Assembly (NCBI GenBank): GCA_002633005.1
Contig: NMRA01000102.1
Location: 449,511 to 513,510, forward strand
Length of the DNA: 64,000 nucleotides
From: Phoronis australis
Lineage: Eukaryota > Animalia > Phoronida
Reading direction: 5' to 3'
Numbering within the stretch: position 1 is the stretch's first letter; each line of letters starts with the position of its first letter. Positions 2,633 to 55,820 of this stretch are shown here, in pieces. The notes under the pieces are model-generated. The model was given only the letters and a program-made list of their open reading frames with translations, did no database searches and was not told the origin of the DNA. Position numbers and translations under genes: made by a program.

Positions 2633-2999
2633 GCTTATGATGAATGGCAATGCTGTTTTACATGAAGACTTGCAAATTTATCTGAGTGGCCAAACCCACA
2701 AAATGTCAGTGTATTTGTGATAATGAACTCATTGCGTTAAAAGACATTTTTCCTTGATTAATATGAAACAAGCCCTCAATACTTTAATGCTACTATTTGA
2801 GGCATTGTCAAAGAGGGATGGTAACCATGGGGAGTGGGGTGACGGGATACTAGAATATTCCCTTCAACCAAAAAATTCTCCTTTGAGAAGGCATAGAAAC
2901 GTTTATCCAGCCAGGGCCTTGTTAGAGGGCATTGTTGTTGTCTGTGGCTTTGTGTTGCCGGTAATGTTCCAGTATGAAGGTCATCAATTGTTATTTCAG

Positions 3000-5972
3000 G
3001 CAACTCCCGCAGCCTCAGTTTAGATGCCTATGATCAATATGACAACCTGGAGAAGACCAGTCAGTTTAGATTCACACCTCCTACGCACACTATGCTGGCG
3101 TTTAGGCAGGCTCTGTTGGAATTTGAAGAAGAAGGTGGAGTCAAAGGTCGAGCACAAAGGTATGATTGACTTTTGTTGTGAAGCGCATGTTTTCTTGTGA
3201 TGGGTGATGTCTGGCAAGAAATTTCTGAATGGCTAGATTGACAGTTTGACAGCAAGAAATTAACTGCTAACATTATGCAAGAAATGGCATGCATTGTCAG
3301 TAAAGATTTTGTTTGGAAACTGTTTGAAGTTGTGAAACCAAGTAATAGTTTTAGGAGACTTTCAAGTAGGAACGTGGGTGCTGATCATTTGGGACTAGAT
3401 ACTAGTGACCTCTAGAGCATGAGAGTGTTTAAAATATATCCCATGCCATCACATACCTTCTAAAAACTAAGGTCTTTTCACGATGTTAAACACATTCCCC
3501 TATCCACCTGCTACAAAAAAGAATCACCTCCCAGTACAACTAGGTGGCTATAACAGTTATCAGGCCATGTGATAAGCCACTATTGCTTCCTGAAATTCCC
3601 CAGTTGTAAATAAACTGGATTGGCTGTCATTGCATGTGTGTCACTATACCTTGCAGGTATCAGTCTTATCGTCATGTGCTATGTGTCACTATACCTTGCA
3701 GGTATCACTCTAATCGTCATGTGCTATTTTTCACTATACCTTGCAGGTATCAGTCTAACTGTCATGTGCTATGTGTTACTATACCTTGCAGGTATCAATC
3801 TAATCGTCATGTGCTACGTGAAGGAATGAATAAGATGGGATTCAAAGAGTTCCTGGATAACACCCATCACGGCTACATCATTACATCCTACCACTTCCCA
3901 AGTGACCCCAACTTTGACTTCAAGGAGTTTTACTCTCGCTTGAGTGATTTAGGTAGAATTTTTGAAATTTTGGGTTGGTGCACTTAATGTCTCATTTGTT
4001 TGGAACTGTAATGATTGACATTAACATTCAGTAACATCATGGCTAAGTTTACCTGACATCGTCTGTGAAAATAGTTTTCAATTGTATATTTATTTGTGGG
4101 AGCATATTGCCATCTCGTCTGTCTCTCCAGGCATCTAGGCGTCCGGTGTCCGGCATCTGCAGCAATGCTGTATCTCCTAAACCCCTCACAGGATCTTGAT
4201 GAGATTTGGCAGATGTGTTTCTATGAAAATGACGAATTTTGGATGGATTTGACTTCTGGTGTGCCCTCTTGTGGTACTTTTTTATGTTTACCTCTGTATC
4301 TTCAAAGGTCCTCTACAGGTTTTCATAAAACTTGGCACATAGGTATCTATTAATGAGATGACGCTCTCCTCCCATTTTTGGATGAATTTGAGGTATTTTG
4401 TGCCACTTAGCGGCCATTCATACTGTTTTTGGCGTCATCCCTTCTATCAATCTCTAAGGATGATAATGTGAAAATTGGCATGTAAAGCTTCTTACTATAA
4501 GGAAGACAGTTGATGATTTTCCGATGACTTTGATTACTGTGGCGCCTCCTAGTGGCAGTTTTGTTTTTTTTTGCGCCCATACCTGTATCTCCTAAGTCCT
4601 CTGCAGGATCTTTATTAAATTTAGCACGTGTATTTATTTGAAGTTTACAATGAACACTGTGCCCCCTAGTGGCAATTTCATTTTTTCTGTTTTTCCTCTG
4701 TTTCTCTGAGGTTTCTTGACAAATTTTCATGAAATGTTGTAAATAGCTTTTTACAGAAACAATTACATTTTCCAGTTTTCAGAAGGATTCAACGTATTTT
4801 GCACCATCTAGTGGCTATTTTTACTGTTTTCTAGTCTGTTTTTGGCGTCTGCCCTCTGTCAACCAAACCACTCTTAGGATGATTGTGAAAATTGGCTTAT
4901 ATGTTCTTAGTGTGAAGAAGACACTTGATGGTGATTTTCCGAGTTCAATTACTGTGGCGCCTCCTAGTGGCAGTTTTATTTTTTTTTGAGCCCTTAGCTG
5001 TATCTTCTAAGCCCTCTGCAGGATCTTTATTAAATTTAGCAAGAGTATTTATATGAAGTTGACAATGGAAGACGACAACTTTCAGACAGATCCGACAAAC
5101 GCTCTGCCCCCTAGTGGCAATTTCATTTTTCCATTTTTCTCTGTTTCTTTAAAGTTTGTTGACTGATTTTCATGACATGTGGTTAATAGCTTTCTGTTAA
5201 AAAACGGTGACATCTTCCCGGTTTTTGATGGATTCGAAGTATTTTGCACCGTCTAGTGGCCATTTTTATGATACAAATAAACACCCCTAGAAGCACACCA
5301 TTTGCAGTGCATTTGTGGACGCATTATAATGCTTCGTGTTGCTCTTGTTATGAGGTTTGGTTAATAACTTTCTATTAAAGAAACAATGACATGTTGCTGT
5401 TTTTGTATGGAATCAACATATTTTGTGCCATCTAGTGGCCATTTTAAGGATACAAATAAAAATCCCTAGAAGCACACTGCATTCGTGAGTGCAATTCTGT
5501 GCTCTGCATTGCTCTTACGACTTGTTTATTATCAAATTGTGTGGATTCATTTTTGTTGAACATATTTGAATACATTTTGCCTCTACAATTAAGCATGTAA
5601 AACAGAATTTTAACTAAAACATGAAAAATGCCAACAGTTCTAGACCTAATAAATTCTTTTTGTATTGCAATTATCTTTTCATGCTCTGCAAGGTAGTGCA
5701 AATTAAAGACCTTTTTTCATCTTATCTAATATCCTTTCTGTTTTTAAAAAGGAAGCTTGGGCCACAAGTTATATTATTTGGGCGTATGTCAAACATAAAT
5801 TTTTAATTACCCCATTGCAGATCAAGTCATCTACCCAGGAAAGGTCCTCAACGCAGACTGCTTCAGAATTGGCAACATTGGACAGCTGACACAGACAGAC
5901 ATGCAGCACCTGTTGAGATGTATTGAAAAAGTGTGTCATGACATGGACGTTAAGCTACCTGTGCAGTACTGA
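3000..5972 (+). CDS. phnW: 2-aminoethylphosphonate-pyruvate transaminase (PhnW/AEP transaminase, class V PLP enzyme); last three coding exons, 5' part upstream of the window
   Basis: Exons: 3000-3159 ([54 protein letters not shown]), 3792-3952 ([46 protein letters not shown]) and 5821-5972 ([25 protein letters not shown]). Junctions are GT-AG and phase-consistent. SLSLD, FTPPTH, IYPGK and FRIGNIG are characteristic PhnW motifs. Confidence 0.9.
3634..3816 (+). repeat. 45-bp tandem repeat x4 spanning the phnW splice acceptor
   Basis: Unit gtgtcactataccttgcag|gtatcantctaatcgtcatgtgctat. Possible exon starts at 3657, 3702, 3747 and 3792. Confidence 0.92.
4080..5516 (+). mobile_element. Helentron-associated non-autonomous element (HINE/DINE-1-like), copy 1, with a duplicated 3' end
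   Basis: Decayed 5' palindrome, GTCC-like microsatellite and ~150-bp monomers carrying gcgcc(c/t)cctagtggc. 3' terminus gtggacgcatt..gctcttgtt at 5349, with a second 3' end to ~5516. Confidence 0.75.
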
Positions 5973-8539: not shown

Positions 8540-9321
8540 TTTTATGTGCCACATATTTATATGTAGATGCATTATGCCGTCATCTCTGTCCGTCCGTCCG
8601 GGCGGCGTCCGTCCGGGCGGCGTCCGTCCGGCGTCGGCTGCTCTATCTCCAAAACCCTTTGACATACGTTCATGAAATTTGATGTTTTAACAACGGACGA
8701 CGACTTTTAGACAGATCCGACTACCAGTGTGCCCCTTAGTGGCAATTTTAGTTTTTTACGTTTAACTCAACAGATTTTCATAAAATTTTAAATATAGGCA
8801 TCTATTGGTGTGAAGACGCTATCTTCCTGTTTTTGGATGGAATCGAAGTATTTTGCACCACCTAGTGGCCTTTTTTGCTGTTTTCAAATCTTGTTTTGGT
8901 GTCCATCCCTGTATCAACCAAATCATTTGAAAATTGGCATATATGTTCTCAGTGTGAAGTTGACCTTTGATGATGGTGCCTGACTACTGTGGCGCTTCCT
9001 AGTGGTAGTTTTGCGCCCATAGCTGTATCTCCTGAACCCACTGCAGGATCTTTATATTAAATTTAGTAAGTGTATTTATATGAAGATAACAACAGACGAC
9101 GACTTTCAGACGCATCCAACGGAGGCTGTGCCCACTAGTGGCAATTTCATTTCATTTTGTTTCCTTTGTTTCTCTGAAGTTCCTTGACAGATTTCTACGA
9201 AATATGGCATGTTTCTGTTTTGGATGGATTGTACTTTTTTACGCCATCTAGTGGCCAACCTAAAAGCACACCATTTGCAATGCATTCAGGGCGTATTTCA
9301 ACGCTCTGCGTTGGTCTTGTT
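8540..9321 (+). mobile_element. HINE/DINE-like element, copy 2
   Basis: 5' ttttatgtgccacatatttatatgtag palindrome, (ccgt)n/gggcggcgtccgtcc microsatellite and monomers. 3' gggcgtatttcaacgctctgcgttggtcttgtt. Confidence 0.8.
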
Positions 9322-10043
9322 AAATCACTTTTTTTCACCTTAATTTCCATCAAGTTTGTTAAAATCAAAATTTTAGGTGGTGTTTGACGGATATGTTTAT
9401 GATTTAAAAACGTGGAATTTGACATGTGACACTCAGTGTTAAGACTAAATTATTTTGAATACAACATGTACTGAATAGAAAAATATTTTTATCCCTGCCT
9501 CGAGTTCAAACTAACAGTATTGCAATTGGCAACTTGCACTAATCCAAACAACCAGTGAATATGACATTTTTAAATAGAAATGCTGTGTTTATTGAGCAGC
9601 TACAGGTACTCACAATTCACACCTTTAAACTCTTAAGAAGTAAGTGATGTACAAATGGAATGTTTTATTTTATGACAACTTTCGTACATACAGGATCAAA
9701 CACACCAAGTTTTATAACAGTATTTTTGACTTAAATGAAATATAATTAGGAAATACATTGTAAATTCCTCACTTTCGGTTCTATTACTGTGTGACCAAAT
9801 ACAAATGTGCTATACGCTGAACTTTGACCTAACACGACCTAAACATTCAGTTTCAATTTGTGGAAAAAAAACCTCAGTGCAGATCGACAAGATTCAAAAT
9901 TTTGACAGTACTATGAATTTTGGCTATAATCCTAAAATTTTCTACTAATTATAAAACAGATACATGGCTTGAGACCACGTTTAATTATAAATTTCAATAA
10001 AAATAAATATACTGCATTTAAAGCATCTCGCACCGTAAGTCCT

Positions 10044-16000: not shown

Positions 16001-19000
16001 ATTAAACCATAAGTAGTTCAAATAATAAAATTATTTGCCCTGCATTGTCCCAACATGTAGTTTGACATTCTGTGAGACTAAGAAGATTTAACAGACTATC
16101 TCATCTTTAAATCAAAAGATCTCTAAACTATTGAGGACACTTTCAGTTTTTGTAAGAGTTATTGAGAACTAATTAACTTTTGAAAATGAAGTACAAATTG
16201 CACACACCTAGTTTTTAAAGCACAAAATGCGCAAAACGTCTTAAACATGCTGAAACTAATTAAAGAGCTTTAAGGAGATTACAAAAAAACATACTAAAAT
16301 TGGTCGCTGAGAAGTTCCACCCTCAGCCGGACCAAAGCGCTTGGGCCTTTTGCCATAAATGACATTTCTGTAGTAGAGAAAGTCTTCTCTATTTTTGAAG
16401 TGTTCCGTCATCTCTACAGGTGTCTCTTCTCTCTTCACAAGACCATCAACTCGAGCCTCATCATAGAAAACCATTGTACGATCATTCTCAGGTCCAGGAG
16501 CACTTGCTCTGTACACATGTTCTACAAAGCCATTTTTGACATTAATGAGACACGTAGTTTTAAAATTCAAAGTTCTAGTAGCTACAATGCCTATTACTTG
16601 CTTACAAGACTTTAATTGAGCAATGCAGTACAAAGTGGAATGAACAAGAGCAACGTGGAGCATTGAAATGCATCCACAAATGCATCACAAATGGTATGCT
16701 TTTAGGTGTGCTTATTTGTATCATAAAAAATTGCCACTAGATGGTGCAGAACACATAACATCCATCTAAAATCGGGAACATGTCATCAATTTTTTTAATA
16801 CAAAGCTATTTAATAAATTTCATAAGTATCTGTCAAGGAACTTAAGAGAAACAAAGGAAAACGGAAAAAATGAAATTGCCAATAAGGGGCACAGCGTTTG
16901 TAGAATCCGTCTGAAAGTCGTAGTCATCTGTAAGTTGTTAACTTCATATAATGCTAAATATTCTGCAGTGGGTTTAAGATATACAGCTATGGGTGAAAAA
17001 CAAAACAAAACAAAACACAAAGTACCTCAAATCCATCCGAAAATGGAAGGATAGTGTCATCTCACCAATAGATACCTATAGTCCAAATTTTATGAAAATC
17101 TGTTGAGGTCCTTCAAGATACAGAATAAATGTAAAAAACTAAAATTGCCACTAGGGGGCATACTGGTTGTCAGATCTGTCCGAAAGTCATCATCGTTTGT
17201 TGTCAACCTGATATAAAAACATTTGCTAAATTTAGTAAAGATCCTGCAGGGGGTTTAGGAGATACAGCCATGGGCGCAAAAGAAAACAAAACTGCTACTA
17301 CAAGGTGCCACAGTAGTCAAAGTCATTAGAAAATCCTCGTCAATTGTCTTCTTCAAAGTAAAACATGCATGCAAATTTTCACAATCATCCTTAGAGCAGT
17401 TTGGTTGAGAGGGGACAGTAAAAACTGGCCACTAGGTGATGCAAAATACCTCGAACCCATCCAAAAACGGCAGGATAGCATCATCTCCCTAGTAGATGCC
17501 TGTATGCCAAATTTATGAAAATTTGTTGAGGTAAAAAACACACCACCAGTCGGATCTGTCCAAAAGTTCGCACATGCCGTCCTGTCCACAAAAGGAACAC
17601 AAAGTCATGTGCAAAATTTCATGAACAAATGTGAGGGGTTCTGGAGATAGAGCAGCAGACGCCGCACACCATACGGACGGACGGACGGACATGGATGACG
17701 GCATAATGCGTGCACATATAAATATGCAGGTGCATAAAAATGAAAAAAGAAAATTTGACAAATAATAATAAATGCAACTAAAAAAGACAAATTCACAAAT
17801 AACTAACAACAAGTTGTAACGAAGTGAAATAAACTTTTCATAAAAATTACTTTTTAAGCACAGAATTAATTTTAACATTTAAATGAATCCAAGGCAATAG
17901 GGAATCTGAACATGAAAAAAGTCAGGTGAAGCTGTTTGAAATCACATTACTTTTTTAGAATAGATTGTTTTTTTCTTGTTCTGTTGTTTTTAGGTGGTCA
18001 ACTTGTAGCAGCACCGGTGTTTGTTTAACCACCTCATATCTGCATAATTTATATCGTTCGCATAATATCTTTGATTCTTCTTCTTCATTCCTACCTTTGA
18101 GACATCTGTAGCGTCCTGGGTGGAACAACTCTGACTTCCAGCCTGTTTGATGATTATGTACTCTGGTGTGTAACTTGTCAACTCTATGTCGGAAGTACTC
18201 CTTCACCATAACCAAGTCATACACTATAAAAGAAGAAAATGAATTGGCACTTTTTTTATTTAGCGATCTATCTACAAATTCCTGCAAATTATCTAGCCAG
18301 TGGCACAGTGAGAATGTAGTATTTTTTCAAAGCCTGGAATGATTTATGGGTGCAGTCATTATCATTCAATATTGTTTAATATTAGATAACATAATTTACT
18401 GAATACCACACACCAAGTTGAGAGGCATGTACTTGTAATGAGATGCATGACTTTATGGCATTTCAACTGTAAATCACACTAAAAAGAAAGCACCTTCCAA
18501 ATTCAAAACTTTGGTGAACACATATATCCAATGCACAATAGTTGTAAACTGAATAAAGGTAACAGCTGATTAGAGTCTGAGTTTTGCATGAAACAGGCAA
18601 TGATAACTTACATTCATAGTCATTGAACTGGGACAGTCGTGACACGAGGCCATCCTGAGTCAAGTAGTGGGCAAACTTCTCAAGTTTGGCTTTCTTGTAA
18701 TACATGGTCTTCTTGCCAAGAGGACATCTCAATTCATATTCTAAAATAAAAATATACAGTTTGTAGTACGACACATCACACAGAGGCAGATTCATGTGTT
18801 AACACAACACTGACAGACTCCTGTGTTAACACAATACTGACAGACTCCTGTGTTAAATACAATACTGAGAGACTCCTGTGTTAAATATAATACTGACAGA
18901 CTCCTGTGTTAAATACAATACTGACAGACTCCTGTGTTAAATACAATACTGAGAGACTCCTGTGTTAACACAATACTGACAGACTCATGTGTTAATACAA

Positions 19001-24185: not shown

Positions 24186-24712
24186 GACTAAAAGCGAGAG
24201 TTCAGAATATAAATTACGCTGCAGTGTGATTGAAACCGAAATGTTTTCAATGGAAACCTGTCGTGACTTAGGACTTCTTTTTTAAACTGTTGTTCATGCG
24301 CATACTTGACTACGATAAGAAATAGTTTCTAACAAAACAACTATAATTAAAAAACTTTTGCAAAGTTCTTAGCAAAAAATAACTTTAAGTCTCCGAACAC
24401 GGTGTATTATTGCTCTCACCACACTGAATTTAATGAGAAGTTTGAGTATTGCGGTTTTGTGAACGAATACCGTAAAATGTAAATCGGTCTTAGTAGCGGA
24501 ACTGACTCTGCACATGCTCTGATGATGTGCAAGTGAAGTTGAAATATTATAACATTGAAACATTTTCTTGTATTTGTGTTATATTCGTCCACATGCCATC
24601 TTTTATTGTCAACATAATTTACGACTGTATGAAAATTTAAGAGTTTGTGTGAATATTTTGTAAATATTTGTATTACTTTGGCACACAGAGTTTACACGTG
24701 AAATTGAACGAA
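24186..24712. promoter_or_regulatory. Bidirectional promoter and 5' UTR region between DRC7 and TTC27
   Basis: Divergent ATGs at 24185 (-) and 24713 (+) are 527 bp apart. An acceptor (ctcgcttttag) just upstream of the DRC7 ATG implies a non-coding first exon in this interval. Confidence 0.7.
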
Positions 24713-30700: not shown

Positions 30701-33700
30701 TGCCTCTTAGCAAATCTAGAAATAATGAGAATATGAACTAACAAAACTGATTGAAGAAGCCTAGCAAATATCTCATATTATAAACAGGACATTATAGAGA
30801 GTGATCACTTTAAAAGTGAAGTGTAATTGTTATGTCAGTTTTAGGAAATGATTTGTTATTATTTCAGGTGAAATTGTTACAAGATGATCTCATAGATCGT
30901 CTGTCGGTGGACGGTGAAGTCTGTTATAACCTACTAAGACAGCCAGTATGTCTGCTGTTGGCAAGGTACCTTCTGGTTGGTTGTCAGGAATGGTTACAAG
31001 ATGTGCCAGTAAGTGAGTTTTCACTGGACGTGACATTTGGAGTCTCTTTAAGTTGTACTTAAATTGACATCATCCGATTTCTTGGACCATACACAATGTT
31101 ACATGAATCTTGAAAACATTTAATGTCATTCGTAGTATGAAAGCTGCAGGGTTCATGTACTTTTTTTAATGCCAGTCGAGTGAGTTGCGTAAGCCATGCA
31201 CAAACATTGTTGTTCACTTGTTTTGTTCATTTTCTATGTAGTTAAAACGTAGCCTTTGTCTATTACAATCCTCACATGGCAAACGGCAGATTGGACGTCT
31301 GAACCACTGTAACTTTTGCACACTCATCACAGACACCTGATGTGCCTTCTTATCTTCCAACCGTCAAATCAGAAGCCTATATTCCAATGGCATGATTTGT
31401 GGTTAGACTTTGTCCACCCATAGTGATCATAGGACTGGTAACACTCTTTGCTAACGTCTGATCTGCCTGATGTCCAAATATCTTATCTGCCTTTTATGTA
31501 TAAATTCCACATCTGACTTTGGTATTAGCTCTTCCGGCAATAGTCACTTACAAGGGTTCCGGATTTTGAGAACCAGTTTGATGCCTGTTTTTGGGTGGAG
31601 AAAACTGGTTCTCGAAGTGCAGGACCCAGTAAGTGACATACCATTCTTCCCGTGATACCCATGCAGTTTCACACTGTGTGATACTTACGGTAACAATTAT
31701 AAAAGAAACTTGTTTCACAAGCTGTTTGTGCTGCTCTTGTAGTGTTTAAGCGTGAAGTGAATCGCTTTTGTGGGTTCTGTCAAATATTTTTTTGTGGTGT
31801 TGACAATACTGATAATTATATTTTAAAACTTGTGATTTTATCCGCCCTTATTTATATGTGGGTGCACATTGCCATCATCTCTGTCTCGGCATCCAGCGTT
31901 TCCAGCTGTATCCTAAACCCCGAACAGGACCTTGATGAGATTTGGCAGATGTTTTCCTATGAAGCTGACGACGGATGACGACGAATTTTGGACCTAGTGA
32001 CAGTTTTAATTTTTTACCGTTGCCTCTGTATCTTTGGAGTTCTTGGGTGGATTTTTATGAAATTTAGTAAATAGGTTTCTATTAAGGAGATGACACTTTT
32101 CCATTTTTGGATGGCTCTTGACGATTCTGTGCCACTTAATGGCCATTTTTGAAATTTTTGAGTCAGTTTTTTTGGCGTCTGCCTTTATAACTGCCAAACC
32201 GTTTAAAAAGTCATGAAAATTGGCAAATGTGTTCCTAATGAGGAGACCACAGCTGACATTTATTTTCGGATGGGTTTGACTACTCTGGCGCCCCCTAGTG
32301 GGGATTTTGTTTATTTTTTTCCGCGTCTGTATCTCCTTAACCCTTTGCAAGTTCTTTCATTGTGGAATTAGGCAGATGTGTTTCTATGGAATTGACAACA
32401 GATGATGACGAGTTTCAGCCCGATCCGACTATTGGTGTGCCCTCTAGTGGCAATTTTATTTTTTTAGGTTTTCCTGTGTTTCGTAGTTCATTGATGGATT
32501 TTCATAAAACTTGGCAAATAGGTTTCTATTAAAGTGATGGCATTGCTTTTTCCATTTTTGGACAGATTTTACGTATTGTGCCCCTCCTTGTGGTGATTTT
32601 TAACAGTTTTGAGTCCATNTTTTGTTTCTGTGGTGCTTTAAGCAACTGGTGTATAGGATGTGCTTGTATTATGAAGATTACTCACATTTTGCCCCTAGCC
32701 TATTGAGGAGACAATGACCATGCCTTTCCATTTTGCAAAGTATGCCCTCTACTGGCCACTTTATGTGGTACCAATAAACAACCCTAGAAGGATACCGTAT
32801 GCGGTGCAATTGTGGGCGCATTTCAACGCTCCGCGTTGCTCTTGTTTAGGTTTTCCTGTGTTTCGTAGTTCATTGATGGATTTTCATAAAACTTGGCAAA
32901 TAGGTTTCTATTAAAGTGATGGCATTGCTTTTTCCATTTTTGGACAGATTTTACGTATTGTGCCCCTCCTTGTGGTGATTTTTAACAGTTTTGAGTCCAT
33001 TTTTGGTGTCCACCTCTCTATCCACCAAACTGCTTTGAGGATCATTGTGAAAATTTACAGATTTGTTTCAGGTGCAAGGCCGCATCTGATGCTGATGTTT
33101 GGATGGGTTCCACTACTTTGGCGCCCCCTAGTGGCATTTTTTTCCATCTGTGGATGTATCTCATTAATTGTTATTTAGGATCTTTGTGAAATTTGGCAGA
33201 CGTTTTCGTATGGAGGTGACAATATTTTATGACGCATTTCAGACCCATTCGACTACCACTGTGCCCCCTAGTGGTAGTTTTAGTTGTTAACATTTGCCTC
33301 TGTATTTTCCAAGTTAATTGATGTATTTTCCTGAAATTTGGCAAATAAGTTACTATTGAGATGACGAGCCTTCCATTTTTGTATGGATTTGATGTATTTT
33401 TGCATCACTTAGTAGCTATTTTTATTTTTAGAGAACCTTTTTTGTTCCTCATAAGAAGACGTTGATTTGTGGATGGATTTGACAACTGTGATCCATCCTG
33501 CTGGCGATGTTTGTATTTTTTGCTTCCTCGGTTGTATGTACTTACTATCTTGAAGGATCTTTGTGAAATTTTGCCAGAATAAGTTTTAATATTATAACTG
33601 AATACGGCTACTAAGTCTTTTGGACGGTTCTGACTACTGCTGTATCCCACCCTAGTAGCAATTTTAGTTTTTACGTTTGGATCTGTATCTTCAGAATCCT

Positions 33701-36700
33701 TTGACAGTTTTTATTAAAATGTGATAAGTTAAGCAAGTTTCTGTTATGTTGGTGATAGCATCAATCCACTTTGGGATGGATTTGACGTTTTCTGCACTAC
33801 CCAGTGTTCATTTTTGACACTTATAAACACCCCTAGAAGCACACTGCTTGCGTTGCTGTCGTGGGTGCATTTCAACGATCTTCATTGCTCTTGTCATTTT
33901 TATAGTCAGCTGACCTTTGGCGTCTCCACTGTTTATGGCTGCACCAACGAACACTTGACAACCGAGTCTTCAGCCTAAAGACTGCCATTGTGGAACTTAT
34001 GGACAGGGGTAGGGCTCACATGATGTCCTGTGCTGTTTGTTGCTCACATTGTTTTCATCGCCAAAAGGTTTATTTGTTTTACTCAGTGGTTTATCTTTTT
34101 TTGTCATTACTCTTTTGCATCCAAACGGCTCGATTCCTAGCATAATGTCAGCTTACCAAATGCACCCTGGCTAAATGCCAAATCAGCAAACCTCATTGGC
34201 AAGACCCAAAAATGAAATAAATGAGATAGCTGAATTGATGACCAATTTTCTTGTCTCGCTCACTCTCCTAATGAGGCACATGAACCCAATTGGGCCTTTC
34301 TGATTTTTTTAGATCGATTCTGACTTCCATCTGTTTATTCCTTGCAGTATCATGAGTGCGCTCAGTTTTAGCGTGGCGACTTTGTATTATATCCTGTCTG
34401 ATATTAAAACACAACCATTAGGCACTGGTAATGACATGACATTTAAAGGACACATTGCAGCTAATTATACTAATTACACTTTTGATGGAATTGGCCAAAA
34501 TAATTAAAAAAATTTAAAACTTTTGAGATGTCTTGTTTTAGGAGTATATGTTATAGTTTGTGTGATTTTGACTTCTTTCTATTTCAGTATCCCAACAACA
34601 ATGGCTGAAAGCTGATGAATACAAGTAAGGTCATTTACAGTGAAATTACTTAAGACTTCAAGCAAACATAAACTCACCTTCTGTCACAAAACTTAAGTTT
34701 TAGTTTAGAACACTTACTGTAATAAAATTGGTTTGAATAATATTCCTTAGTCTAATTGGACATGATTTCGTGAATTGGAAGAACTGACCACAGTTGGCCT
34801 TTGGTTGAGACCAGGTTCTACAAGTTGGCTTGTCACAGTTGGCCATTTTATGTGCCGAGCAGGTTTTAAGCAGTTATAATGAATCGTCAGTTTTATAAGG
34901 TCAGCAGTCAGTCTCATCTGAGTTAGCACCAGGTTGAGAATAGTGCACCTGCACCTGTTTCAGGACCCAGCGCCATTCAAAGATTCGCCTCAATATTATA
35001 GATGCGTTCTGCTCACCATCTTGTAGAGAACCTTATTTATAACTTTCAGAGATTTTCATTTCAATAAAAATAAAATTCTGTTTTTTCCATTTTATAAATT
35101 AGCAAATTCCATTTTACAAAAGTGATGGAATTGCATTACTTTTACTGTGTCAATTATGCCGCAGCTCCATTTCACTGATGACTCGTTACGCGTCATGTTT
35201 ATTGTTTCTTAAAACTGGAAAAACAATGGCACCATCTTCAAAATGAATAAGCTACTACGTGAACATGTCTACTGAAAAATGATTGTCGATCAATTTTTGG
35301 CCAGAATCATGGAATTTTAATGGATGTTATTCTAAATAATATTAGGTATTCAAAATCAAAAATGTGAATATTATGGTATCTTTTACTGAAATATGTGAAT
35401 TCAGTTCAAAGCCTGTAATTCCTTGTAAAAAGCAAATTCCATGAATGCATTCTGTTTTCTATTATCACTGAAAATCAGGGTCTCTGTTCATGATGCCTAT
35501 ATATTCTTTTGCAGCGACCTCGCCATTCAGTATCACTTGGAGGCGGTTTACTTGAGTATTTATTATTACCGCTACAAGCATGGGCAGGAACACCTAGATG
35601 AGGCTGTCAAACTGTCTAGACTATCAGCCGACTTGACAGGTGAGTTGTTTGGATGCTAAGGCCAGTGGTGACAGTAATCGGGTTGTCAATGAAGATGATA
35701 TAATATGAATATATTATAATATGGATATGAATATTATTGTAATATGGATATGAATATATTATAATATGGATATATTATACATGTTGCAATTTTTGAGTCA
35801 CTTAATCATTATCTGCAAATGTTTTTGAACTTTTTTGTAGGACACATCTGTGTATTTAACTACAAAATTATAGATGTCAACTCGTTAAAAAAGTATACAT
35901 TTTCTAAAAGAAGAAAATCAAATTTGATATTTGCATGTCTTCAGTAAAATTTAAGAAAGTTATATTCATAGCAAAACAATTGGTAACAATAACATGAACT
36001 AATTTCGTTTAGCGTAAATGTTCACTATGAAATCTCAAAAACCTTGTTGCAGCTTTCTAACTTATCTTCGTTCTTTTTTGATAACCCCTCCTGCAAAGGT
36101 GGAACATTTTAACAACAATTGTTTTTATAAGAATAGGGATATACTTAGCCACTTGCCCAGTCACCAATGTGAGTAAAAATGGTGCTGGGTGAGTAGAAGT
36201 TTGTTTGCCGGTCACCCAGGTGAGCGCAAAGGCAATCTACTGTTTCCCAGGTGAAAATGAATAAATTTTCTCCTCCTTGTGCTATTTTTATCATCAATTT
36301 AAGGTTAAGTTTGGTCCGTGTGTTGATGCTCCGGCAGTAGAAGAAACATCGGTGCACTGCGTTCTTACTGAGTCAGTAGATGTTAACCGTTATGCGATTC
36401 GTCTAGATAAAAGGTCACAGTGAGTGGGACGTGTGGTGGGTCCTGCACAAAGATGGACTAATCCGAAATGAAGGAAAAGGGGGGGAAGGCGTTAGACCAG
36501 TGCATGTACTCACAGCAAGTGAAATACCACATTTCTTGGAATTGACTTCTTATTGTACAGTGTAATTTTAGCCAAGATTATTTTATAAATAATAACACTG
36601 AAAATACATAAAAATTAAAGAAGTTGTGCTTGTTATTGTTATTAGCTGATCAAAATAAAATATCGCGATTTTTAGCTAGACTGATAATACATGTGTAGAG

Positions 36701-42700: not shown

Positions 42701-45700
42701 AAGCTAGTCTTCTTGGCATGCACTGTGAAATCTAAAGAATCAAGTAACTCCACTGCAACCTTGCTATTAGACCCCAAGCTTCATCAAAGGTATCTCCAAT
42801 GGTAATGAAATCATCTATGTAACCACGACAACAGAGTGACTAGATTGCCATGAACTAGCCAAAACAGTTGTCAAAACTAGGGGATGAATTCAAACCCTGA
42901 GGCAAAGCTGCGAAGTGGTATAAGGAACTATGTGTAGAGATTTTCTAGTAAAACTAGACACAGCAATGGAAAAGTAGACATCCTTTAAATCAATGGATGA
43001 AAACCACGAGCTTTCTTAATAAGGGGAATAAAATCGCTAAACGTGTAAATGTTAAAATGACACTTCCGGACATGCCGGACATGATCATTCTATTGTCTCG
43101 GATTATTGATCATGGGAAATGACCCATCTTTCTTAAGAGCCAGGAAAACATTAGAGCACGATTCAGCAGTGCCTTAGGCTTCAAACTAGGCAATGATATC
43201 ACCAAGAACAGGATGTCATTTTAACATCATAACTGATGGCTTTAGACCTAACATATTGAATGAGATAGCAGTTGAGCTCAAAAACATATTCACGAATAGT
43301 GGACAAAATCCAAGAATCAGAAGTCAGTTCTGACCAATGTGAAAAGGCAGTAGCAGTTGTACCTGCATGAAAATTATGAGGTGAATTTTCAAAAAAATTC
43401 ACAAGATGTTTGAGTTGTTGTTTACAAAGAGAATCATTAACGCGCTCATATAAAACTGTCATCTCGGCTACAGAAGCATTCACTTCCTTTTAATCCTGCT
43501 TGTCGGACAACTTTGACGGAGGCCGCCACTTGCCTAAAGAAGACCTATGATGATGTTACTGATAACCTCTGCCGTAGTGACTGGACTTCTAAGGATATGA
43601 GCATAACAATGACAAACTGGTCTATTTCTTTAATGTGTTTGTTGATGTCTCCCCAAACAGAAATTCCTTTCCAATGAGCAAATTAGTCTTGCACAGTTTG
43701 TTATATGATGGTGGCTTCCTTGCAAATCTGGCACGACTTATTAAAAGTGGATGACAAAACCCTGAATGTATTGATCAGCTTTGACTAGAGCAATTCTTGT
43801 GATGCACTGCCAGAGTGAGAGGCATTAAAAAGCTTAATGATTGGCACAGTACCCTTCAAAAGAAGGGTAAATTCTGCTGCAAACTGTTGTCAAGTTTCTT
43901 AGTGCAATTTTTCAACTTGTCCTGTATCGCTGGGTTTTCGCGAGTAACAGCCATAGAATCACAGCTCTGTGGAAAGAGACATTTCTCCATAGACTTACAC
44001 AAACGTTCCTCATTGGGTCTAATTCTTACTCCACTGTTGACAATAGTAGCTATCGAATCCAAAACAGGTGGGCCAGGAACAGTGGGGGGGGGGGCCATTC
44101 GACAAATGTTTTTCGTGAGCATCCTGATACACCGATGCCAAAAAGGCGGCAACAGCTTCGCCAAACTGCAGTTGGTCAATAGGGTCATCTTTGACCTCGC
44201 TCTCCTCTGCCTCATTGCCCTCGTATTCCTCGGGGATAGAAAAAAGGGCCTGCTGCTATTCAGTGGCGAAAATCAGTTCAGCGATTTGCAACAGAACACA
44301 GTCGCTCCCTGAGTTCTCCTTAGCCTCCGGCGCGACAACTCTAACACCATCCGACTACTTGGTCAGTCTCACCACTGTTTCTATGGCTATATCCAACTGC
44401 GAGTTGGTTGAATGACCAGGAACGTTCTAGGACAACAACGTCATAATGATAAACATGTTCTTCCCTACTGAAAAGTAGATCAACTAGCATGCTGCATCTC
44501 AGACAGATTGAAAAACATGACGTCTCACTGACGAGGTCAAGTCATACTGACTGACGAGAGTTAGGACGTCATCTCATGTAGTCCCGAGGTATTCTTGAGC
44601 CAAGTGAAATTGCTAATTATTTTTGGAAACTGAATTGCTTGAATCTTCTGTTTCATTAAACATTTATTTACACATAGGTCCAGTAAGTTAAAACTACAGC
44701 AAATAAAGTGTTTCATGATAGGAGAGCATCATTTAGTCGTGTGTTGTTACTTATGATAACGTGATGTCTGCTGTCTTATGTCTGCTTTTAGTATGAAGAG
44801 TGTGTTGCGTGCTTTGAAAAGACACTTCATGTAAACCGACTTCAACGTGACGCCTGGTTCAGTTACGGCTGTGCATCTATGTTGCTTCAGAAGTTACCAC
44901 AGGCAGCCAATGCCTTCCGCTGCTGTCTTGAAGTTGACTTTGATGTAAGTAGGTTCTACTTCTGTCAAGATGTTGGGGACTGTTCCTTCCAAAAGTTCAA
45001 CAGTCATATGTGGAGTGTTTCATAGGCTCCTCAAGGAAGTGAACATTGATGCTTTGCTAGACCTGTTCACTTTCTCAAATGCAACAGGTTTTATTAGTAC
45101 TTTGATCGAACATTAAAATTCATTAGCAAATATGTTTAGTAAGATATGGTTGGATGAATCGCATTTGTTTTTGGCCAAAATATGAGTACGAACTTTAAAA
45201 TCAGGGCATATGTAAATAACGACATTGATAGATGTTTCGGTTTATTGTCCCTAAACCAAAATGTCCGTCAATAAGTCGTTATTTACATATGCACTGATTT
45301 TAGTTCGGATAACATGAGTATTGATTGGTGTAGTTAGTGTTTTCACGCCAATGTTTTGTGACATCATAAAAGTATATACAAGCACCAAATCCTGATCTTT
45401 TCAATTTTAAACCAATGTTGACCAATGAAAATGGTGATAACGAAGAAAGGCATTCTTCGTGAAAAGCTCATGACATGTCTTCTTGTTGGTTTTCAGTGTA
45501 AAAAGCACCCAAATACTCTGCTACAGAGTTGGTTTCAACTTGTTTACTGCTTTATGTTAGGGTTTTAGAAGTTAGCTTTGTTTGCCTTTAGTTAAGAGTG
45601 AACTCTACATTGGCCAGCTAAGATCAGCACATTTTTGCCACAGAAGCAACATGCCTGTTAGCGCATTGAGGAATGGGTTGGTTCCTTGCTCCAACACTAG

Positions 45701-48700
45701 GTGGAAATGCTACTTCATGATTCTGAGGATGTTTTGAGCCTTTAAATTTATTTTATTTGAATCAGTTGACTGTATTTTAAGACTGATAGTATTTACACGC
45801 GATGAGTGCAAATTAACAGTAATTGCATTTACTATCGTTTACTTTTAAATAAATACGTCAAGATAATACTGAATCAGGACAGGAAAGTTTAATAGCCCTT
45901 TCAGATTACTAACCAGTTGAGTTGTTTGGAAATTCTCAATCAAGAGTGTTACGTTTGTTACAGAATGCACAAGCTTGGAATAACTTGGGTTCCATCTATG
46001 TTAAAATGAATGAAAAGTAAGTGAGTAATGTAGTTAGAATATAAATTATTCTAATTTTGCTTTGTGGAATCTGTATAATCATACATTCCAATGACATTCA
46101 TCAAGATTACTTTAATTGATCAACATTCATATTAAGATTATGATTTTGTCTGGACTGTTACTTTATTTTAAAACCAGGAATAGGTAACCAACATTTCATC
46201 TCTGCTTGATGAAGGTATTATTTGTCTGCGGCCTATTTTTATCAAAGGTGGTATGCCCAGTTTTAACTTCAATTTAACCTGCACACACACTGAATGGAGT
46301 AAAAAAATGATCAACTTTACAATCAGTTGTGACACTGCAATCTTGTAACATCCCATTCTCAGTTACTGATGGTTTTAGCTATGATTTAGTGTTCAACCTT
46401 GATAGAACTGCCCCCTGTGGTTTATGTGTGATCAAATGTTAGAGCAGTCTCAGTAGTAATTCTGGTAACTTTGCTTGTTTAGGGTCAAAGCCCTGAAAGT
46501 TTACAAAGAGGCTGTAAAATATGACTATGAAAACTGGAGAATTTGGCATAACCATATGACAGTAAGTTGCATTGTGGGAGTTTTTGTTTATTGAATTTGC
46601 AGTTGGCGTGATAGTTTTATATTTTCAAATGATGTCACAATGACCTAACTTCCATGTAACGCACAATGCGCCACTGGACTCCATAAAAAATTGTGAGAAT
46701 TAAATGTTTATATTGTGGCTTATTTATAATGATATTGTCTCAGACTTGTGGACCAGGTGTTCTCTTTCATGTAATTTTTTATTGCACCATTGCAGTTATT
46801 TTTCGAGCGAATTTTTTTTTTAGTTTACCATTGAAGCACTGACTGTAATATTTATAAGCTAGTTTTCCATTGAAGCGTTGACTAATATTTATTAGCCCTG
46901 GCATATAGTCAGCCCTGGCATGTAGTCAGCCATATAGTCAGTCCTGGCATATGGTCAGCCCTGACACATCGTCAGTCCTGGCACACAGTCAGCCCTGGCA
47001 TACAGTCAGCCCTGGCATACAGTCAGCCCTGGCATACAGTCAGCCCTGGCATACAGTCAGCCCTGGCATACAGTCAGCCCTGGCATNNNNNNNNNNNNNN
47101 NNNNNNNNNNNNNNNNNNNNNNNNNNNNNNNNNNNNNNNNNNNNNNNNNNNNNNNNNNNNNNNNNNNNNNNNNNNNNNNNNNNNNNNNNNNNNNNNNNNN
47201 NNNNNNNNNNNNNNNNNNNNNNNNNNNNNNNNNNNNNNNNNNNNNNNNNNNNNNNNNNNNNNNNNNNNNNNNNNNNNNNNNNNNNNNNNNNNNNNNNNNN
47301 NNNNNNNNNNNNNNNNNNNNNNNNNNNNNNNNNNNNNNNNNNNNNNNNNNNNNNNNNNNNNNNNNNNNNNNNNNNNNNNNNNNNNNNNNNNNNNNNNNNN
47401 NNNNNNNNNNNNNNNNNNNNNNNNNNNNNNNNNNNNNNNNNNNNNNNNNNNNNNNNNNNNNNNNNNNNNNNNNNNNNNNNNNNNNNNNNNNNNNNNNNNN
47501 NNNNNNNNNNNNNNNNNNNNNNNNNNNNNNNNNNNNNNNNNNNNNNNNNNNNNNNNNNNNNNNNNNNNNNNNNNNNNNNNNNNNNNNNNNNNNNNNNNNN
47601 NNNNNNNNNNNNNNNNNNNNNNNNNNNNNNNNNNNNNNNNNNNNNNNNNNNNNNNNNNNNNNNNNNNNNNNNNNNNNNNNNNNNNNNNNNNNNNNNNNNN
47701 NNNNNNNNNNNNNNNNNNNNNNNNNNNNNNNNNNNNNNNNNNNNNNNNNNNNNNNNNNNNNNNTGTATTTTCATAGGTCTTCAGGTGTATACTTTGTGTT
47801 ACTTCGTGACTATGAAGGAAAAGTTCCAAGTAGAAATTTGTTTCTGGCATTCTAATGCTGTGCTAATCTCGTATGTTGGTAAATTTGTTTTTAATTGTAT
47901 GTTTCTGTGGTGCTTTAAGCAACTGGTGTATAGGATGTGCTTGTGTTATGAAGATTACTCACATTTTGCCCCTAGCCTATTGAGGAGACAGTGTTCACGC
48001 CTTTCCATTTTGCTAAGTACAACATACTACATATATGCCCTCTACTGGCCACTTTATGGTACCAATAAACAACCCTAGAAGGATACCGTTTGCGGTGCAA
48101 TTGTGGGCGCATTTCAACGCTCTGCGTTGCTCTTGTTACTGTTTTCGAGTCTTTTTTTTGGCGTCTGCCCCTCTATCAACCAAATCGTTCTAAGAATGAT
48201 TGTGGAAATTAGCATGTATGTTCTTACTATGATGAGGACAGACAAAGACGATTTTCCGACGACTTTGACAACTGTGGTGCCTCCTAATGACAGTTTTTTT
48301 GCGCATATGACTGTATCTCCTTAACACTATGCAGAATTGTTATTAAAGTTAGCAATTGTATTTATATGAATTTGACAATGGACGACGACGACTTTCGGAC
48401 GGATCTTACTACCAGTGTGCTCCTTGTGGCAATTTTAATTGTTTACGTTTACCTCTACATCTTCAAAGTTCCTCAACAGGTTTTCATAAAATTTGGAATA
48501 TAGGCATCTGTTGGAGAAATGACACTATCCTCCTGTTTTCACATGGTATCGTGGTATTTTGCCATTTTGCGCCACCTGATGGCCATTTTTGCTGTTTTGG
48601 AGTCCGCCCCTTTATCAAATAAATCATTCTAAGGATGATTGTGAAAATTGGCATACATGTTCTTAGTGTAAAGAGGATGGTTGACGGTGGTATTCCATTG

Positions 48701-51700
48701 ACTTTGCAGTTGTTTTTTTTTGCACTCATAGTTGTATCTCCTAAACCTACTGCAGGATCCTTGTTAAATTTAGCAAGTGTATTTATATGAAATTGATAAT
48801 GGACGAGGACGACTTTCAGATGAATCTGGCGAACGCTGTACCCTGTAGTGGCAATTTCGTTTTTTCTGTATTCCTTTGCTTCTCTGAATTTTTCGACAGA
48901 TTTTTATGAAATTTGGAGAATAGCTTTCTATTAAGGATTCAATGGCATGCTCCCGTTTTTGGATGGATTTGATGTATTTTGCACCTGTCCATCTAACGCC
49001 CATTTTTATGATACAAATATATACCCGCAGAAGCACACCGTTAGTGATGCATTCGTGGGCGCATTTCAATGCTCTGCGTTGCTCTTGTTAGCATTTGTTC
49101 TGAAGGAATTTTGGGTGGCAAAAAGAGTCCCCAGGGGGTCTTTTGCAAACTTGTATTTGCTTCCACAGAATCCTGGTTCAGTTATTGGTGTGTTGCAAGA
49201 TGAAGACATCACTTTGTCGTCAATTTGGTTATTGCAGTACAAGTCTAACAAATGATTGTCTTGGAAATATTTTGATGTTCCTGGTTATTGCAGTACAAGT
49301 CTAACAAATGATTGTCAATATTTTGATGGTCCTGGTTATTGCAGTACAAGTCTAACAAATGATTGTCAATATTTTGATGGTCCTGGTTATTGCAGTACAA
49401 GTCTAACAAATGATTGTCAATATTTTGATGGTCCTGTTTGAGACCAAATATTGACACTTGTCCCAGACATGCAGAATGATTTTGACAGAGCCCCCTGTGG
49501 GCTTTTTAGAGTCTGGTTCCTGAAAGAGCCCCAGTTTAGGGTTTTGATATTAATACAGGCTCAAGTCGCCAGTAAAAACCATAGAAACGTGTTATCGTGG
49601 TTTTGAAAATGTACTGAATATACCCCTTTGTGCCTCCATTTGGTGATGGCTGTTTATGGAAATTTCTAATTCAAACCATTGCGGAGGTACTTACAAAAAT
49701 TCAAATAGCATTAATTTTGTTAGAACTGTTATCAGCGAGTAACAATAACTGCAGTGTTGTTAGTGATAATGATCTGAAAGTCTCAGTTTCCTATGTAGTT
49801 ATATTAATGAGTATTTTAACATGTAGTTTAATGACTGTTGTTTTAACATAACAGTGTTCTGCAATCAGCAACTTCATAGTTTCACTTCAGTTCATTTAAA
49901 TCCTGTTAGGTGACCAGTGAGTCAGAAGTATGGCAGTGTTATGCTGAGCTGGTCTCTGGCCAACCAGAGCTAACACAAGAAGACAAGGAAAAGGTGATTG
50001 ATGTGGAAAGGAAATTATACATTGTATTGTGTTACTAGGTTTTAATTTCAAGGCATTCTTAAATGTTAGGTGCAACTGATGTCATTAACTGCATAAGGAG
50101 TGTAAAAACATGAAGTCATGGTTTCCATTTTTATGAATTTTTTTGTTATACGCCCACATATTTATATGTGGACGCATTATGCGGTCATCTCCGTCTGTCC
50201 GGCATCCGTCCAGCATCCGCTGCTCTATCTCCGAAACCCTTTGACATACATTCATGAAATTTGGCACATATGTTCCTTTCATCGATGGGACGGCATTTAC
50301 GAACTTTCGGACGGATCCGACCAATGGTGTGCCCCTAGTGGCAAATTTAGTTTTTTACGCTTACCTCTATATCTTCAAAGTTCCTAAACGTATTTTCATA
50401 AAATTTGGCATATAGGCAACCATTAGTGAGATGACGCTATACTTTGGTTTTGGGATGGATTCGATGAAGTTTGCGCCACATAGTGGCCATTTTTGCTGTT
50501 TTCGAGTCTGTTTTTTAGTGTCCACCTTCTATCAACCAAACTGCTCTAAGGATGATTGTGAAAATTGGCATGTATGCTCTTACTATGAAGAGGACGGCTG
50601 ACGATGATTTTCCGATGATTTTGTCTACAGTGGCACCTCCTAGTGGTAGTTTTGTTTTTTGTGCCCGTGGCTGTATCTCCTGAACCGTTTGCAGGATCTT
50701 TGCTAAATTTGGCAAATGTATTTATATTATGTTCACAACGAATGACAACAACTTTCGGACGGATCTGACTACCAGTGTGCCCCTAGTGGCAATTTTAGTT
50801 TTTTATGTTTACCTCTGTATCTTCAAAGGTCCTCAACAGATTTTCAAAAAATTTGGAATATAGGCATCTATTGGTGAGATGATGCTATCCTCCCATTTGC
50901 GGATGGAATCACGGTACTTTGCACCACCTAGTGGCCATTTTTGCTGTTTTCGAGTCTGTTTTTTGGCGTCCACCGGTCAATCAACCAAACCATTCTAACG
51001 ATGATTTTGAAAATTGGCTTGTATGTTCTCAGTGTGAAGAGGGCAGTTGACTATAACGAATTCGACTACTGTGGCACCTCCTAGTGATAGTTTTGTTTTG
51101 TTTTGCGCCCATAGCTGCATCTCCTTAACACACTGCATGATCTTTATTAAATTTAGTAATTGTATTTTTATGAAGCTAACAACAGACGACGTCTTTTAGG
51201 CAGATCCAATGAATGCTGTGCCCCATAGTGGCAATTTTTTTTTTCTGTTTTCCTTCGTTTCTCTAAAGTTTCTTGATTGATATTTATGAAATTTGGTAAA
51301 TAACTTTCTACGATGGCATTTTCCCGTTTTTAGATGGATTTTATGTTTTTGCGCCTTCTAGTGGCTATTTTTATGATACAAATAAACAACCCTAGTAGCA
51401 CACTGTTAGCGGTGCATTCGTGGGTGCATTTCAACGCTCCACGTTGCTCTTGTTTAATTAGGAATATAATATTAGCTCAAAAAGAGAAATATGTCATTTT
51501 GTAATTTCATGAAAAGCATCTGAATTGATTCATACATAACGCAGTACCATGCAGTTATCTTGGAGGTCTGCAAAGTGTCGACAACCAAGGTTTGCTATAG
51601 ATTTACCCGTGTTCTTTTTTCACCCAGGCTGCTCAGTTGTTACAGAAGGCTCAGCGCTGTGTCACTCAACAACTAAACTGGCAGAAGGAAGTCGAGAAGT

Positions 51701-54893: not shown

Positions 54894-55820
54894 TCATGTT
54901 GCACACATTTTGTGCAAAATGTAGCTGCCTGGAATACAAATCTCAGAAATGTTATATACCTCAGGTACCATTAACTAACACAACTCTCAAAACTATCAAA
55001 ATAATTCACTTCATACTCTCACTCGTAATTTCTCACTGTCAGGGTTACCATACTTGTCTGTTAGAGTGCTCATGTCTCAATAATACTGGCACTCTTCAAG
55101 TGAATGACTGCTGCAAGGTACAAGGTCTTTGCAGTTCACAGCAGACCATATGATGGGTATTTGCCACACATTTTGGGTATGTGCTTTTATTTGGACTATG
55201 CATATATTTAAGTGTCATTTTTATCAGTGCAGTCAAATGAATGAATGCAGCAAATTTCAGAGCTCTGTCCTTTTTAAACTAATGGCTCAAAACCAGCATT
55301 CGTGCCACTAACATTGAAACTTTCATTCATTACGCCAGTCATTACATGGTTATTCCAGTACTTTCTTAAAGTAAAATTCAGTTAGTAACTCTCACAAACA
55401 AAAAACAAATATAAAAAAATAACTTCACTATAAAATTAAGCAAACCTGTAGATAAAGTGATGTAACATTTTTCCAGTGCATTAAAATCTCAATTTTTGGC
55501 ATTCAAGCAGTTTCAGTTTCTTTTAAGAAATGAAAATTGCTGAACACCATTATCAAGAACTGATTTGAAAACGAACGCAATCTATTATTTTGGCACACAG
55601 ATGTATAATCAATGATGATACGCCTATGGTAATGACACTATTTAGTGTATTCTGCATTTTGTTATACCCTTTTCATCAACTTCAAACTAAAAAGTATTGC
55701 AATTGCAAACACCAGCAATGAATTCCAATAACACAAAGAGTACTATTGTTCCTATAGTATGCTAAAACTATCACAGCTGTACACTTAAATCTCTCCTAAT
55801 TAACTCAAAACTTCCCACCT

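What the first reader, a model, noticed from the sequence alone, without database searches (positions are those of the whole stretch)
50147..51454. Helentron-like element family disperses phased, co-oriented arrays of CTCF-consensus motifs
Seen: each ~150-bp internal monomer keeps one motif whose reverse complement fits the CTCF core CCASYAGRKGGCRS. Examples are gcgccccctagtgg (32289 and 33122; reads CCACTAGGGGGCGC), gtgccccctagtggc (4659, 33262), gcaccatctagtggc (4801), acgccatctagtggcca (9241), gcaccacctagtggcc (8856, 50921) and ccactagatggtgc (16734). In this copy motifs fall at about 50330, 50472, 50633, 50777, 50921, 51074, 51218 and 51351, all in one orientation. By eye the motif is the best-conserved part of otherwise diverged monomers, with roughly 40-50 instances across six copies in the window. 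Established: CTCF and its motif are conserved across bilaterians, and TE-mediated spread of CTCF sites is known from rodent B2 SINEs. Inference: a rolling-circle element may act as a mobile, roughly nucleosome-spaced CTCF/insulator array in this invertebrate, or exploit CTCF binding itself.
Basis: partly seen in the sequence, partly recalled or inferred. Interest (0 to 1): 0.8.

Follow-up and report, generated by a model that had tools for sequence, protein, structure and literature searches.

The report
Mollusc rolling-circle transposon carrying CTCF arrays
A very abundant jumping element, likely from a mollusc, carries a row of same-direction motifs predicted to bind the genome-organising protein CTCF and tends to lie in the same direction as the genes it sits in; the motifs likely serve the element itself, and binding or insulation is untested.

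Summary
50147-51454 is a non-autonomous Helentron (HINE): subterminal inverted repeats, 5' hairpin, GTCC-type microsatellite, ~143-bp monomers, 3' palindrome, T-rich flanks. Six copies lie in the window and roughly 10^4 in the genome; host genes hit molluscs best. Copies hold 25 CTCF-matrix matches at p<=1e-6, all on the element's antisense strand (shuffles: 0.04). The four monomer types are 50-73% alike outside the motif but 71-93% inside it, and their fixed differences fall on positions CTCF tolerates (p=0.003-0.007). Corrections: two of the eight motifs in this copy are broken by a 1-bp deletion; an AAATTTGGCA box is about as conserved; single copies decay; 143 bp is shorter than a nucleosome core, so 'nucleosome-spaced' fails. 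New: 5 of 5 intronic copies lie in host-gene direction and family RNA is 29-116:1 sense. Best reading: a CTCF docking box kept in the active element lineage for the element's own benefit, not a host insulator system. Binding and a host CTCF gene are untested. New variant of known kinds.

The parts
50147..51454 (+). Whole non-autonomous Helentron (HINE) copy, in an intron of a TTC27-like gene
   Evidence: Read depth jumps at 50146 and falls after 51454; loose ends there have mixed T-rich flanks; TTC27 exons by tblastn
50148..50177 (+). 5' subterminal inverted repeat (50148-50157) and its internal inverted partner (50168-50177), forming a hairpin
   Evidence: fold z=-3.45, 0 of 200 shuffles as good; only z=-0.92 in the decayed copy at 8541
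50191..50219 (+). Degenerate GTCC/GTCY microsatellite
   Evidence: Sequence
50220..51380 (+). Eight ~143-bp monomers: A-B-C, A-B-C, A, terminal B-like; 448-bp higher-order repeat at 77% identity
50326..50344 (-). CTCF-like motif, type A, broken by a 1-bp deletion (8.9 bits)
50471..50489 (-). CTCF-like motif, type B (17.7 bits)
50631..50649 (-). CTCF-like motif, type C (18.4 bits)
50774..50792 (-). CTCF-like motif, type A, broken by the same 1-bp deletion (6.5 bits)
   Evidence: many other copies carry the extra C (table 4)
50919..50937 (-). CTCF-like motif, type B (22.0 bits)
51072..51090 (-). CTCF-like motif, type C, decayed (13.2 bits)
51216..51234 (-). CTCF-like motif, type A (16.1 bits)
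51349..51367 (-). CTCF-like motif, terminal monomer (20.0 bits)
51420..51429 (+). 3' subterminal inverted repeat (8 of 10 match to the 5' one here; 10 of 10 between family majority letters)
51432..51446 (+). 3' palindrome, followed by the CTCTTGTT end
   Evidence: the hairpin is in the minimum-energy fold of the copy ending 32846 (z=-1.64), not of this copy (z=-1.08)
4092..5523 (+). Sister copy with a duplicated last monomer and second 3' end, in the last intron of a 2-aminoethylphosphonate transaminase gene (+)
8541..9322 (+). Sister copy between the 3' ends of two convergent genes
16643..17738 (-). Sister copy in a DRC7 intron (gene on -)
31836..33895 (+). More diverged copy with a nested short subfamily member ending at 32846 and an assembly N at 32619; TTC27-like intron
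47890..49090 (+). Short subfamily member (ends 48137) followed by a 5'-truncated copy; TTC27-like intron

Best explanation
This is a high-copy non-autonomous Helentron (HINE) whose ~143-bp internal monomers each carry a same-strand motif predicted to bind CTCF, and the motif was likely kept by selection on the active element lineage as a host-protein docking site rather than by the host as an insulator. Shown: the anatomy, the motif, its strand, its conservation between monomer types, the decay of single copies, the agreement of copy direction with host-gene direction. Inferred: a partner Helentron Rep/helicase moves the element by rolling-circle copying; CTCF bound at intact arrays would keep a donor copy nucleosome-poor and less silenced and so easier to mobilise; after insertion most copies erode, CpG sites fastest, leaving thousands of partial CTCF sites in introns as a by-product.
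For: Types are 50-73% alike outside the 14-bp core and 71-93% inside; 10 of 14 core columns are invariant against 40 of 125 elsewhere. The 5 fixed differences sit at tolerated positions (exact p=0.003; p=0.007 for the 3 that are not CpG-type); a short second subfamily adds another tolerated change (p=0.001 with it). In genome-wide reads and contigs of the type A motif, non-majority letters average 0.8-2.5% in the core, 2.6-5.8% at non-CpG flank positions and 15-23% at CpG flank positions; no variant is listed at the four most informative columns (5, 9, 10, 13) while columns 8, 11, 12 vary largely to tolerated letters. 33 of 37 gap-free motifs keep the 3' terminal C that 10.64898/2026.10.19.759930 (passages) links to invertebrate CTCF. 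CTCF orthologues are reported in molluscs (PMC10658182 passage). Hairpin and Helitron-end readings of the box fail.
Against: No binding data and no CTCF gene from this animal were available (no genome held). The matrix is vertebrate and recalled. A second box is nearly as invariant between types (9 of 14 columns), so part of the constraint has another cause. In the window, change per column does not track CTCF information content (Spearman -0.24, p=0.41) and informative column 10 is changed in 9 of 37 motifs; column 14 varies 5-8% genome-wide. Type B shows no excess conservation (0.82 vs 0.82). The read test covers one motif type, only 40 of 55 variant rows were shown, unlisted positions were set to zero, and recruitment to a 75-bp reference favours intact centres. 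The benefit to the element is inferred only.
Confidence: 0.45

Rival explanations
1. The box is bound by another protein (the Helentron's own Rep/helicase or another host zinc-finger protein) or has a structural role, and its likeness to CTCF is partly incidental.
For: A second, unrelated box is almost as conserved; oyster HINE monomers also keep two conserved boxes of unknown role (PMC7492417 passage); similar boxes occur in unrelated tandem repeats of unnamed metagenome contigs and in 4 bacterial contigs, though the search pattern forced that.
Against: Variation follows CTCF's tolerated letters; 0 of 20,000 permuted matrices fit as well; the quasi-palindrome is a perfect 5-bp stem in only 1 of 37 motifs and the 6-12 pair holds in 12 of 37; no shared hairpin precedes the CTAG in the four types.
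Confidence: 0.22
2. One genomic CTCF site was captured into the founding monomer and carried along passively; rolling-circle amplification and array homogenisation spread it with no selection on the motif.
For: All monomers descend from one unit, so same-strand orientation and regular spacing need no function; HINE arrays always keep one orientation (PMC7492417 passage); both type A motifs of the focal copy share one deletion, and single copies decay.
Against: Neutral carriage does not explain 71-93% identity in the core against 50-73% outside, nor 7 invariant G/C columns in 14 bp against 9 in the other 125 columns, in a family whose CpG sites decay fast.
Confidence: 0.15
3. The host has co-opted the copies as a mobile array of insulators or chromatin organisers.
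For: Core is better kept than flanks among inserted copies (0.864 vs 0.810, matched permutation p=5e-5, columns not independent); changes are slightly milder than a matched null (p=0.03); TAD borders with CTCF motifs are reported in a squid (PMC13652810 passage); TE-borne CTCF sites are bound in zebrafish (PMC7182764 passages).
Against: Spacing is below a nucleosome core; about 10^4 arrays, many intronic, with steady decay (16 of 45 monomers below p=1e-5); invertebrate CTCFs did not build extrusion domains; the excess conservation can come from subfamily masters rather than from selection after insertion.
Confidence: 0.15

Closest known systems
Cg_HINE elements of the Pacific oyster, with Pearl, DTC84, MgE (PMC7492417; abstract, parts 1-2 of 7 and passages read)
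   Same: 5' subTIR, IR and GTCY-type microsatellite; central 140-180-bp monomers in fixed orientation; 3' subTIR and palindrome; T-rich insertion sites; conserved boxes between diverged monomers
   Different: Here three monomer types form a 448-bp higher-order unit and the conserved box is a strong CTCF match; the passages read name no binding factor; oyster consensus sequences are in a figure not held, so they could not be scanned
DINE-1 and HINE families (PMC4067079; passages read)
   Same: Same terminal architecture, no coding capacity, variable T ends
   Different: No autonomous partner or empty site could be tested here; CTCF boxes are not described in the passages read
Zebrafish non-autonomous DNA transposons enriched at CTCF ChIP peaks, e.g. 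TDR13B (PMC7182764; passages and two supplement passages); mammalian B2 SINE spread (Schmidt 2012, seen only as cited there)
   Same: A mobile element disperses CTCF motifs
   Different: Those are vertebrate cut-and-paste or retro elements with binding shown; this is a rolling-circle element of a spiralian with 5-9 motifs in tandem per copy and no binding data
Helitron minisatellite PATC barriers of C. elegans (bioRxiv 10.64898/2026.08.08.743475; passages)
   Same: Rolling-circle element with internal tandem repeats in introns, proposed chromatin barrier
   Different: PATCs act through 10-bp periodic bending in an animal without CTCF, not through a protein-binding motif
ISX Helitron of Drosophila miranda spreading MSL binding sites (recalled, no call)
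   Same: Rolling-circle element spreading a chromatin-protein binding site
   Different: Single site, shown in vivo, host-selected

Membership tests
HINE / non-autonomous Helentron | Subterminal inverted repeats near both ends | tested here: met
   10-bp pair, 1-2 bases from the 5' end and 25 bases from the 3' end; slightly shorter than the 11-15 bp in the papers read
HINE / non-autonomous Helentron | Inverted partner next to the 5' subTIR | tested here: met
   Hairpin z=-3.45; seen in 4 of 5 5' ends
HINE / non-autonomous Helentron | Microsatellite after the 5' module and central tandem repeats | tested here: met
HINE / non-autonomous Helentron | 3' palindrome close to the end | tested here: met
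   Present by sequence in the 3' ends; short, folding z only -1.1 to -1.6
HINE / non-autonomous Helentron | T-rich (TT) target, no target-site duplication | tested here: inconclusive
   Flanks are T-rich in the window and in reads and no duplication is visible, but no empty site was found
HINE / non-autonomous Helentron | No coding capacity; shares ends with an autonomous Rep/helicase/endonuclease element | not testable with these tools
   Longest stop-free frames inside the copy are under 95 codons; no genome held to look for a partner
Functional CTCF site | Match to the core motif | tested here: met
   Type consensuses 20.5-26.2 of 31.2 bits with a recalled matrix
Functional CTCF site | Constraint that follows CTCF specificity | tested here: inconclusive
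   Met between types and in reads; not met per column among window copies
Functional CTCF site | CTCF gene in the host and occupancy in vivo | not testable with these tools
   No genome, no ChIP run listed
Insulator / nucleosome-phased CTCF array | Spacing that admits a nucleosome between bound sites | tested here: not met
   Median 143 bp against a 147-bp core
Insulator / nucleosome-phased CTCF array | Insulation or loop anchoring in contact maps | not testable with these tools
   No Hi-C data

The most novel reading that the evidence does not exclude
A rolling-circle element has loaded a spiralian genome with about 10^4 CTCF-bound arrays (tens of thousands of sites), inserted almost always in the direction of host transcription, so that nearly all motifs point against the polymerase; the element uses CTCF for its own spread and has thereby become the main source of polarised CTCF binding inside genes.
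Probability: 0.25. Interest if true: 0.8.

Novelty: new variant of a known kind. Interest (0 to 1): 0.52.

Why it matters
What CTCF does outside vertebrates is open, and spiralians are barely studied (PMC10658182 passage). One repeat family with thousands of natural intact and broken motif arrays is a ready-made test set for CTCF binding, methylation and insulation in a mollusc. It may also give a function to the unexplained conserved boxes of HINE monomers. The strong co-direction with host genes, if it holds genome-wide, would point to transcription-coupled insertion or strand-specific purging of a rolling-circle element. The parts alone (HINEs with tandem monomers; transposons spreading CTCF motifs) are known.

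Tried and rejected
No genome is held, so no copy census, partner search or CTCF gene search. Collection scans: a box-plus-motif pattern gave 0 hits in metagenome contigs; a two-motif pattern gave 38 metagenome, 0 viral and 4 genome hits; none of the 42 loci aligns to the element; 8 were read by eye and are unrelated repeats. Rfam: 0 matches. No RNA holder listed by index; RNA runs came by species label. One protein search on the first TTC27-like exon found nothing; a second exon named the gene. Single-strand hairpin reading of the motif and relic Helitron 3' end (hairpin plus CTAG) rejected. T-rich sense strands as the cause of co-direction: too weak (skew 0.02-0.05; TTTTT:AAAAA 60:56 and 91:59). 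Poly(A) signals on the antisense strand: no consistent excess over six copies. Exonisation through splice-like T-tracts: no GT-AG joint among the 15 joints shown of 1,346, so untested rather than excluded. Literature: searches showed no title or abstract on CTCF motifs in HINE or Helentron repeats ('CTCF'+'Helentron': 2 papers, 1 listed, not read); search 57 and passages of PMC9341512 and PMC4224331 gave no sense-direction bias for rolling-circle elements. The library is open-access only; bioRxiv supplements, zebrafish Table S3 names and the oyster consensus figure were not seen. Earlier scan findings: none like this sequence.

Full report
Setting. The window is animal DNA with introns. A DRC7 exon and a TTC27 exon hit molluscan proteins best, at 66-79% and 57-61% identity with no close match, so the host is likely a mollusc; the species was not sought. 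Genes: a 2-aminoethylphosphonate transaminase on + (about 2700-5970), DRC7 on - (10050 to beyond 22800), TTC27 on + (30150-53660). No whole genome is held.

The element. 50147-51454 is one of six related copies, 66-77% alike in pairs apart from a younger shared short subfamily at 88%. Reads fix its ends: depth rises at 50146 and falls after 51454, and reads run on into mixed T-rich flanks at both places. Summed contig depth over the element is 7,000-20,000 times that of the flanks; the tool warns this is no copy number, so I take it only as an order of 10^4; 24,283 and 29,610 contigs were laid in the two DNA runs. The 5' end has a 10-bp subterminal repeat and its inverted partner (hairpin z=-3.45), then a GTCC-type microsatellite; the 3' end has the matching subterminal repeat, a short palindrome and a TT end. 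This is the HINE / DINE-1 plan described in PMC4067079 (passages) and for oyster Cg_HINEs in PMC7492417. The copy at 4092 has a repeated last monomer with a second 3' end, and contigs show the same 142-base return elsewhere, as expected when rolling-circle copying overruns its stop (inference). Empty sites and an autonomous partner could not be tested.

The array. The interior is built of monomer types A, B, C in a 448-bp higher-order unit plus a terminal B-like type. With a recalled vertebrate CTCF matrix, copies hold 25 hits at p<=1e-6, all antisense to the element, against 0.04 in shuffles and none in the rest of the window. Type consensuses score 20.5-26.2 of 31.2 bits, and none of 20,000 column-permuted matrices does as well. 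Of 45 monomers, 37 have a gap-free motif and 29 reach p<=1e-5. In the focal copy two type A motifs share a 1-bp deletion and are weak. Same orientation and even spacing follow from tandem descent and are not evidence of function.

Is the motif constrained? Between types, yes: identity is 50-73% outside the core and 71-93% inside, with 10 of 14 core columns invariant against 40 of 125. The fixed differences are ones CTCF tolerates (p=0.003, or 0.007 without CpG-type changes; post hoc tests on few events). Genome-wide reads over one type A motif show 0.8-2.5% non-majority letters in the core, 2.6-5.8% at non-CpG flank positions and 15-23% at CpG positions; variants are listed at 6 of 14 core and 17 of 20 flank positions, and within the G-run columns 11, 12 and 14 vary while 10 and 13 do not (40 of 55 rows shown, recruitment bias possible). 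Among window copies the excess is modest: 0.864 against 0.810 overall, clear in type A, absent in type B, and an AAATTTGGCA box does as well in B and C. Per-column change does not follow CTCF information content (p=0.41) and column 10 is changed in 9 of 37 motifs. So constraint is strongest in the master lineages and weak after insertion. Heavy CpG decay implies germline methylation of many copies (inference), in line with gene-body methylation in molluscs (PMC10658182 passage). The box is a near-palindrome around CTAG, but it is a perfect stem in 1 of 37 motifs and no shared hairpin precedes the CTAG, so hairpin and relic-terminus readings fail.

Spacing. The median interval is 143 bp, less than the 147 bp of a nucleosome core. 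If every site were bound the array would be a nucleosome-poor stretch of about 1.1 kb, not a phased array; binding of every second or third site (about 290 or 448 bp) could admit nucleosomes (inference, untested).

Direction. All 5 intronic copies lie in the direction of their host gene, one of them on the minus strand (1 in 32 by chance); the sixth is between genes. In three stranded RNA runs family reads follow the element's own 5'-to-3' direction by 32:1 and 29:1 and 40:1 and 116:1 at the type A motif, with many reads entering from different flanks and no start peak at the 5' end, which suggests read-through of co-directional copies. RNA is weighted by expression, so this is not a copy count. 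Intron strand skew is too small to explain it. It is unexplained; it means most transcribed motifs point against the polymerase.

Mechanism. Most likely the active element lineage kept a CTCF docking box in every monomer because bound CTCF helped donor copies stay open and mobilisable; inserted copies then erode (0.45). Rivals: another protein or structure (0.22), passive carriage of one captured site (0.15), host-selected insulators (0.15). I put the chance that CTCF binds intact copies in vivo, whatever the reason, at about 0.6 (judgement). Against the insulator reading, invertebrate CTCF orthologues bound DNA but formed no extrusion domains in bioRxiv 10.64898/2026.10.19.759930 (abstract, passages), though CTCF motifs are reported at squid domain borders (PMC13652810 passages).

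Novelty. HINEs with tandem monomers are known in molluscs, and transposons that spread CTCF sites are known in zebrafish and mammals (PMC7182764). My searches showed no paper on CTCF arrays inside a Helentron-type element, within an open-access library. No related element turned up in the contig collections. Earlier scan notes record several CTCF-bearing transposons in other genomes (unchecked AI notes), so the theme is common. Verdict: real, a new variant of known kinds, interest 0.52.

Noticed in passing
window, all copies; Copies lie in host-gene direction (5 of 5 intronic) and family RNA is 29-116:1 in the element's sense direction; cause unexplained.
   Followed up: partly
window 32620-32846 and 47890-48137: A short second subfamily (88% alike between the two) shares the 3' end, has a different body and one CTCF-like motif; it sits in or beside older copies and is common in RNA reads (loose end at 51370).
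   Followed up: partly
window 32473-32620 and 32847-33000: Near-identical stretch on both sides of the nested insert and an assembly N at 32619; may be an assembly artefact or a local duplication.
   Followed up: no
window 2700-5970 +: Intron-containing 2-aminoethylphosphonate-pyruvate transaminase (PhnW-like) gene, a phosphonate-metabolism enzyme.
   Followed up: partly
window 10050-24300 - and 30150-53660 +: DRC7 and TTC27 genes diverge head to head; exons at 55800-60500 on - look like a further gene (DNAAF2/kintoun-like by recall, no call).
   Followed up: partly
window 243-2330 -; 41900-44300 -; 52990-53470 -: Fragments that look like a non-LTR retroelement and DIRS-like reverse transcriptase/RNase H pieces (by eye, labels recalled).
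   Followed up: no
whole window: About 30 short minisatellites of 11-79 bp in introns.
   Followed up: no
L036:696-875, L015/L026, L018, L034: Unrelated A+T-rich tandem repeats in unnamed metagenome contigs carry the same kind of box; L036 matches the terminal-monomer box and its T-tail. Selected by the search pattern, hosts unknown.
   Followed up: partly
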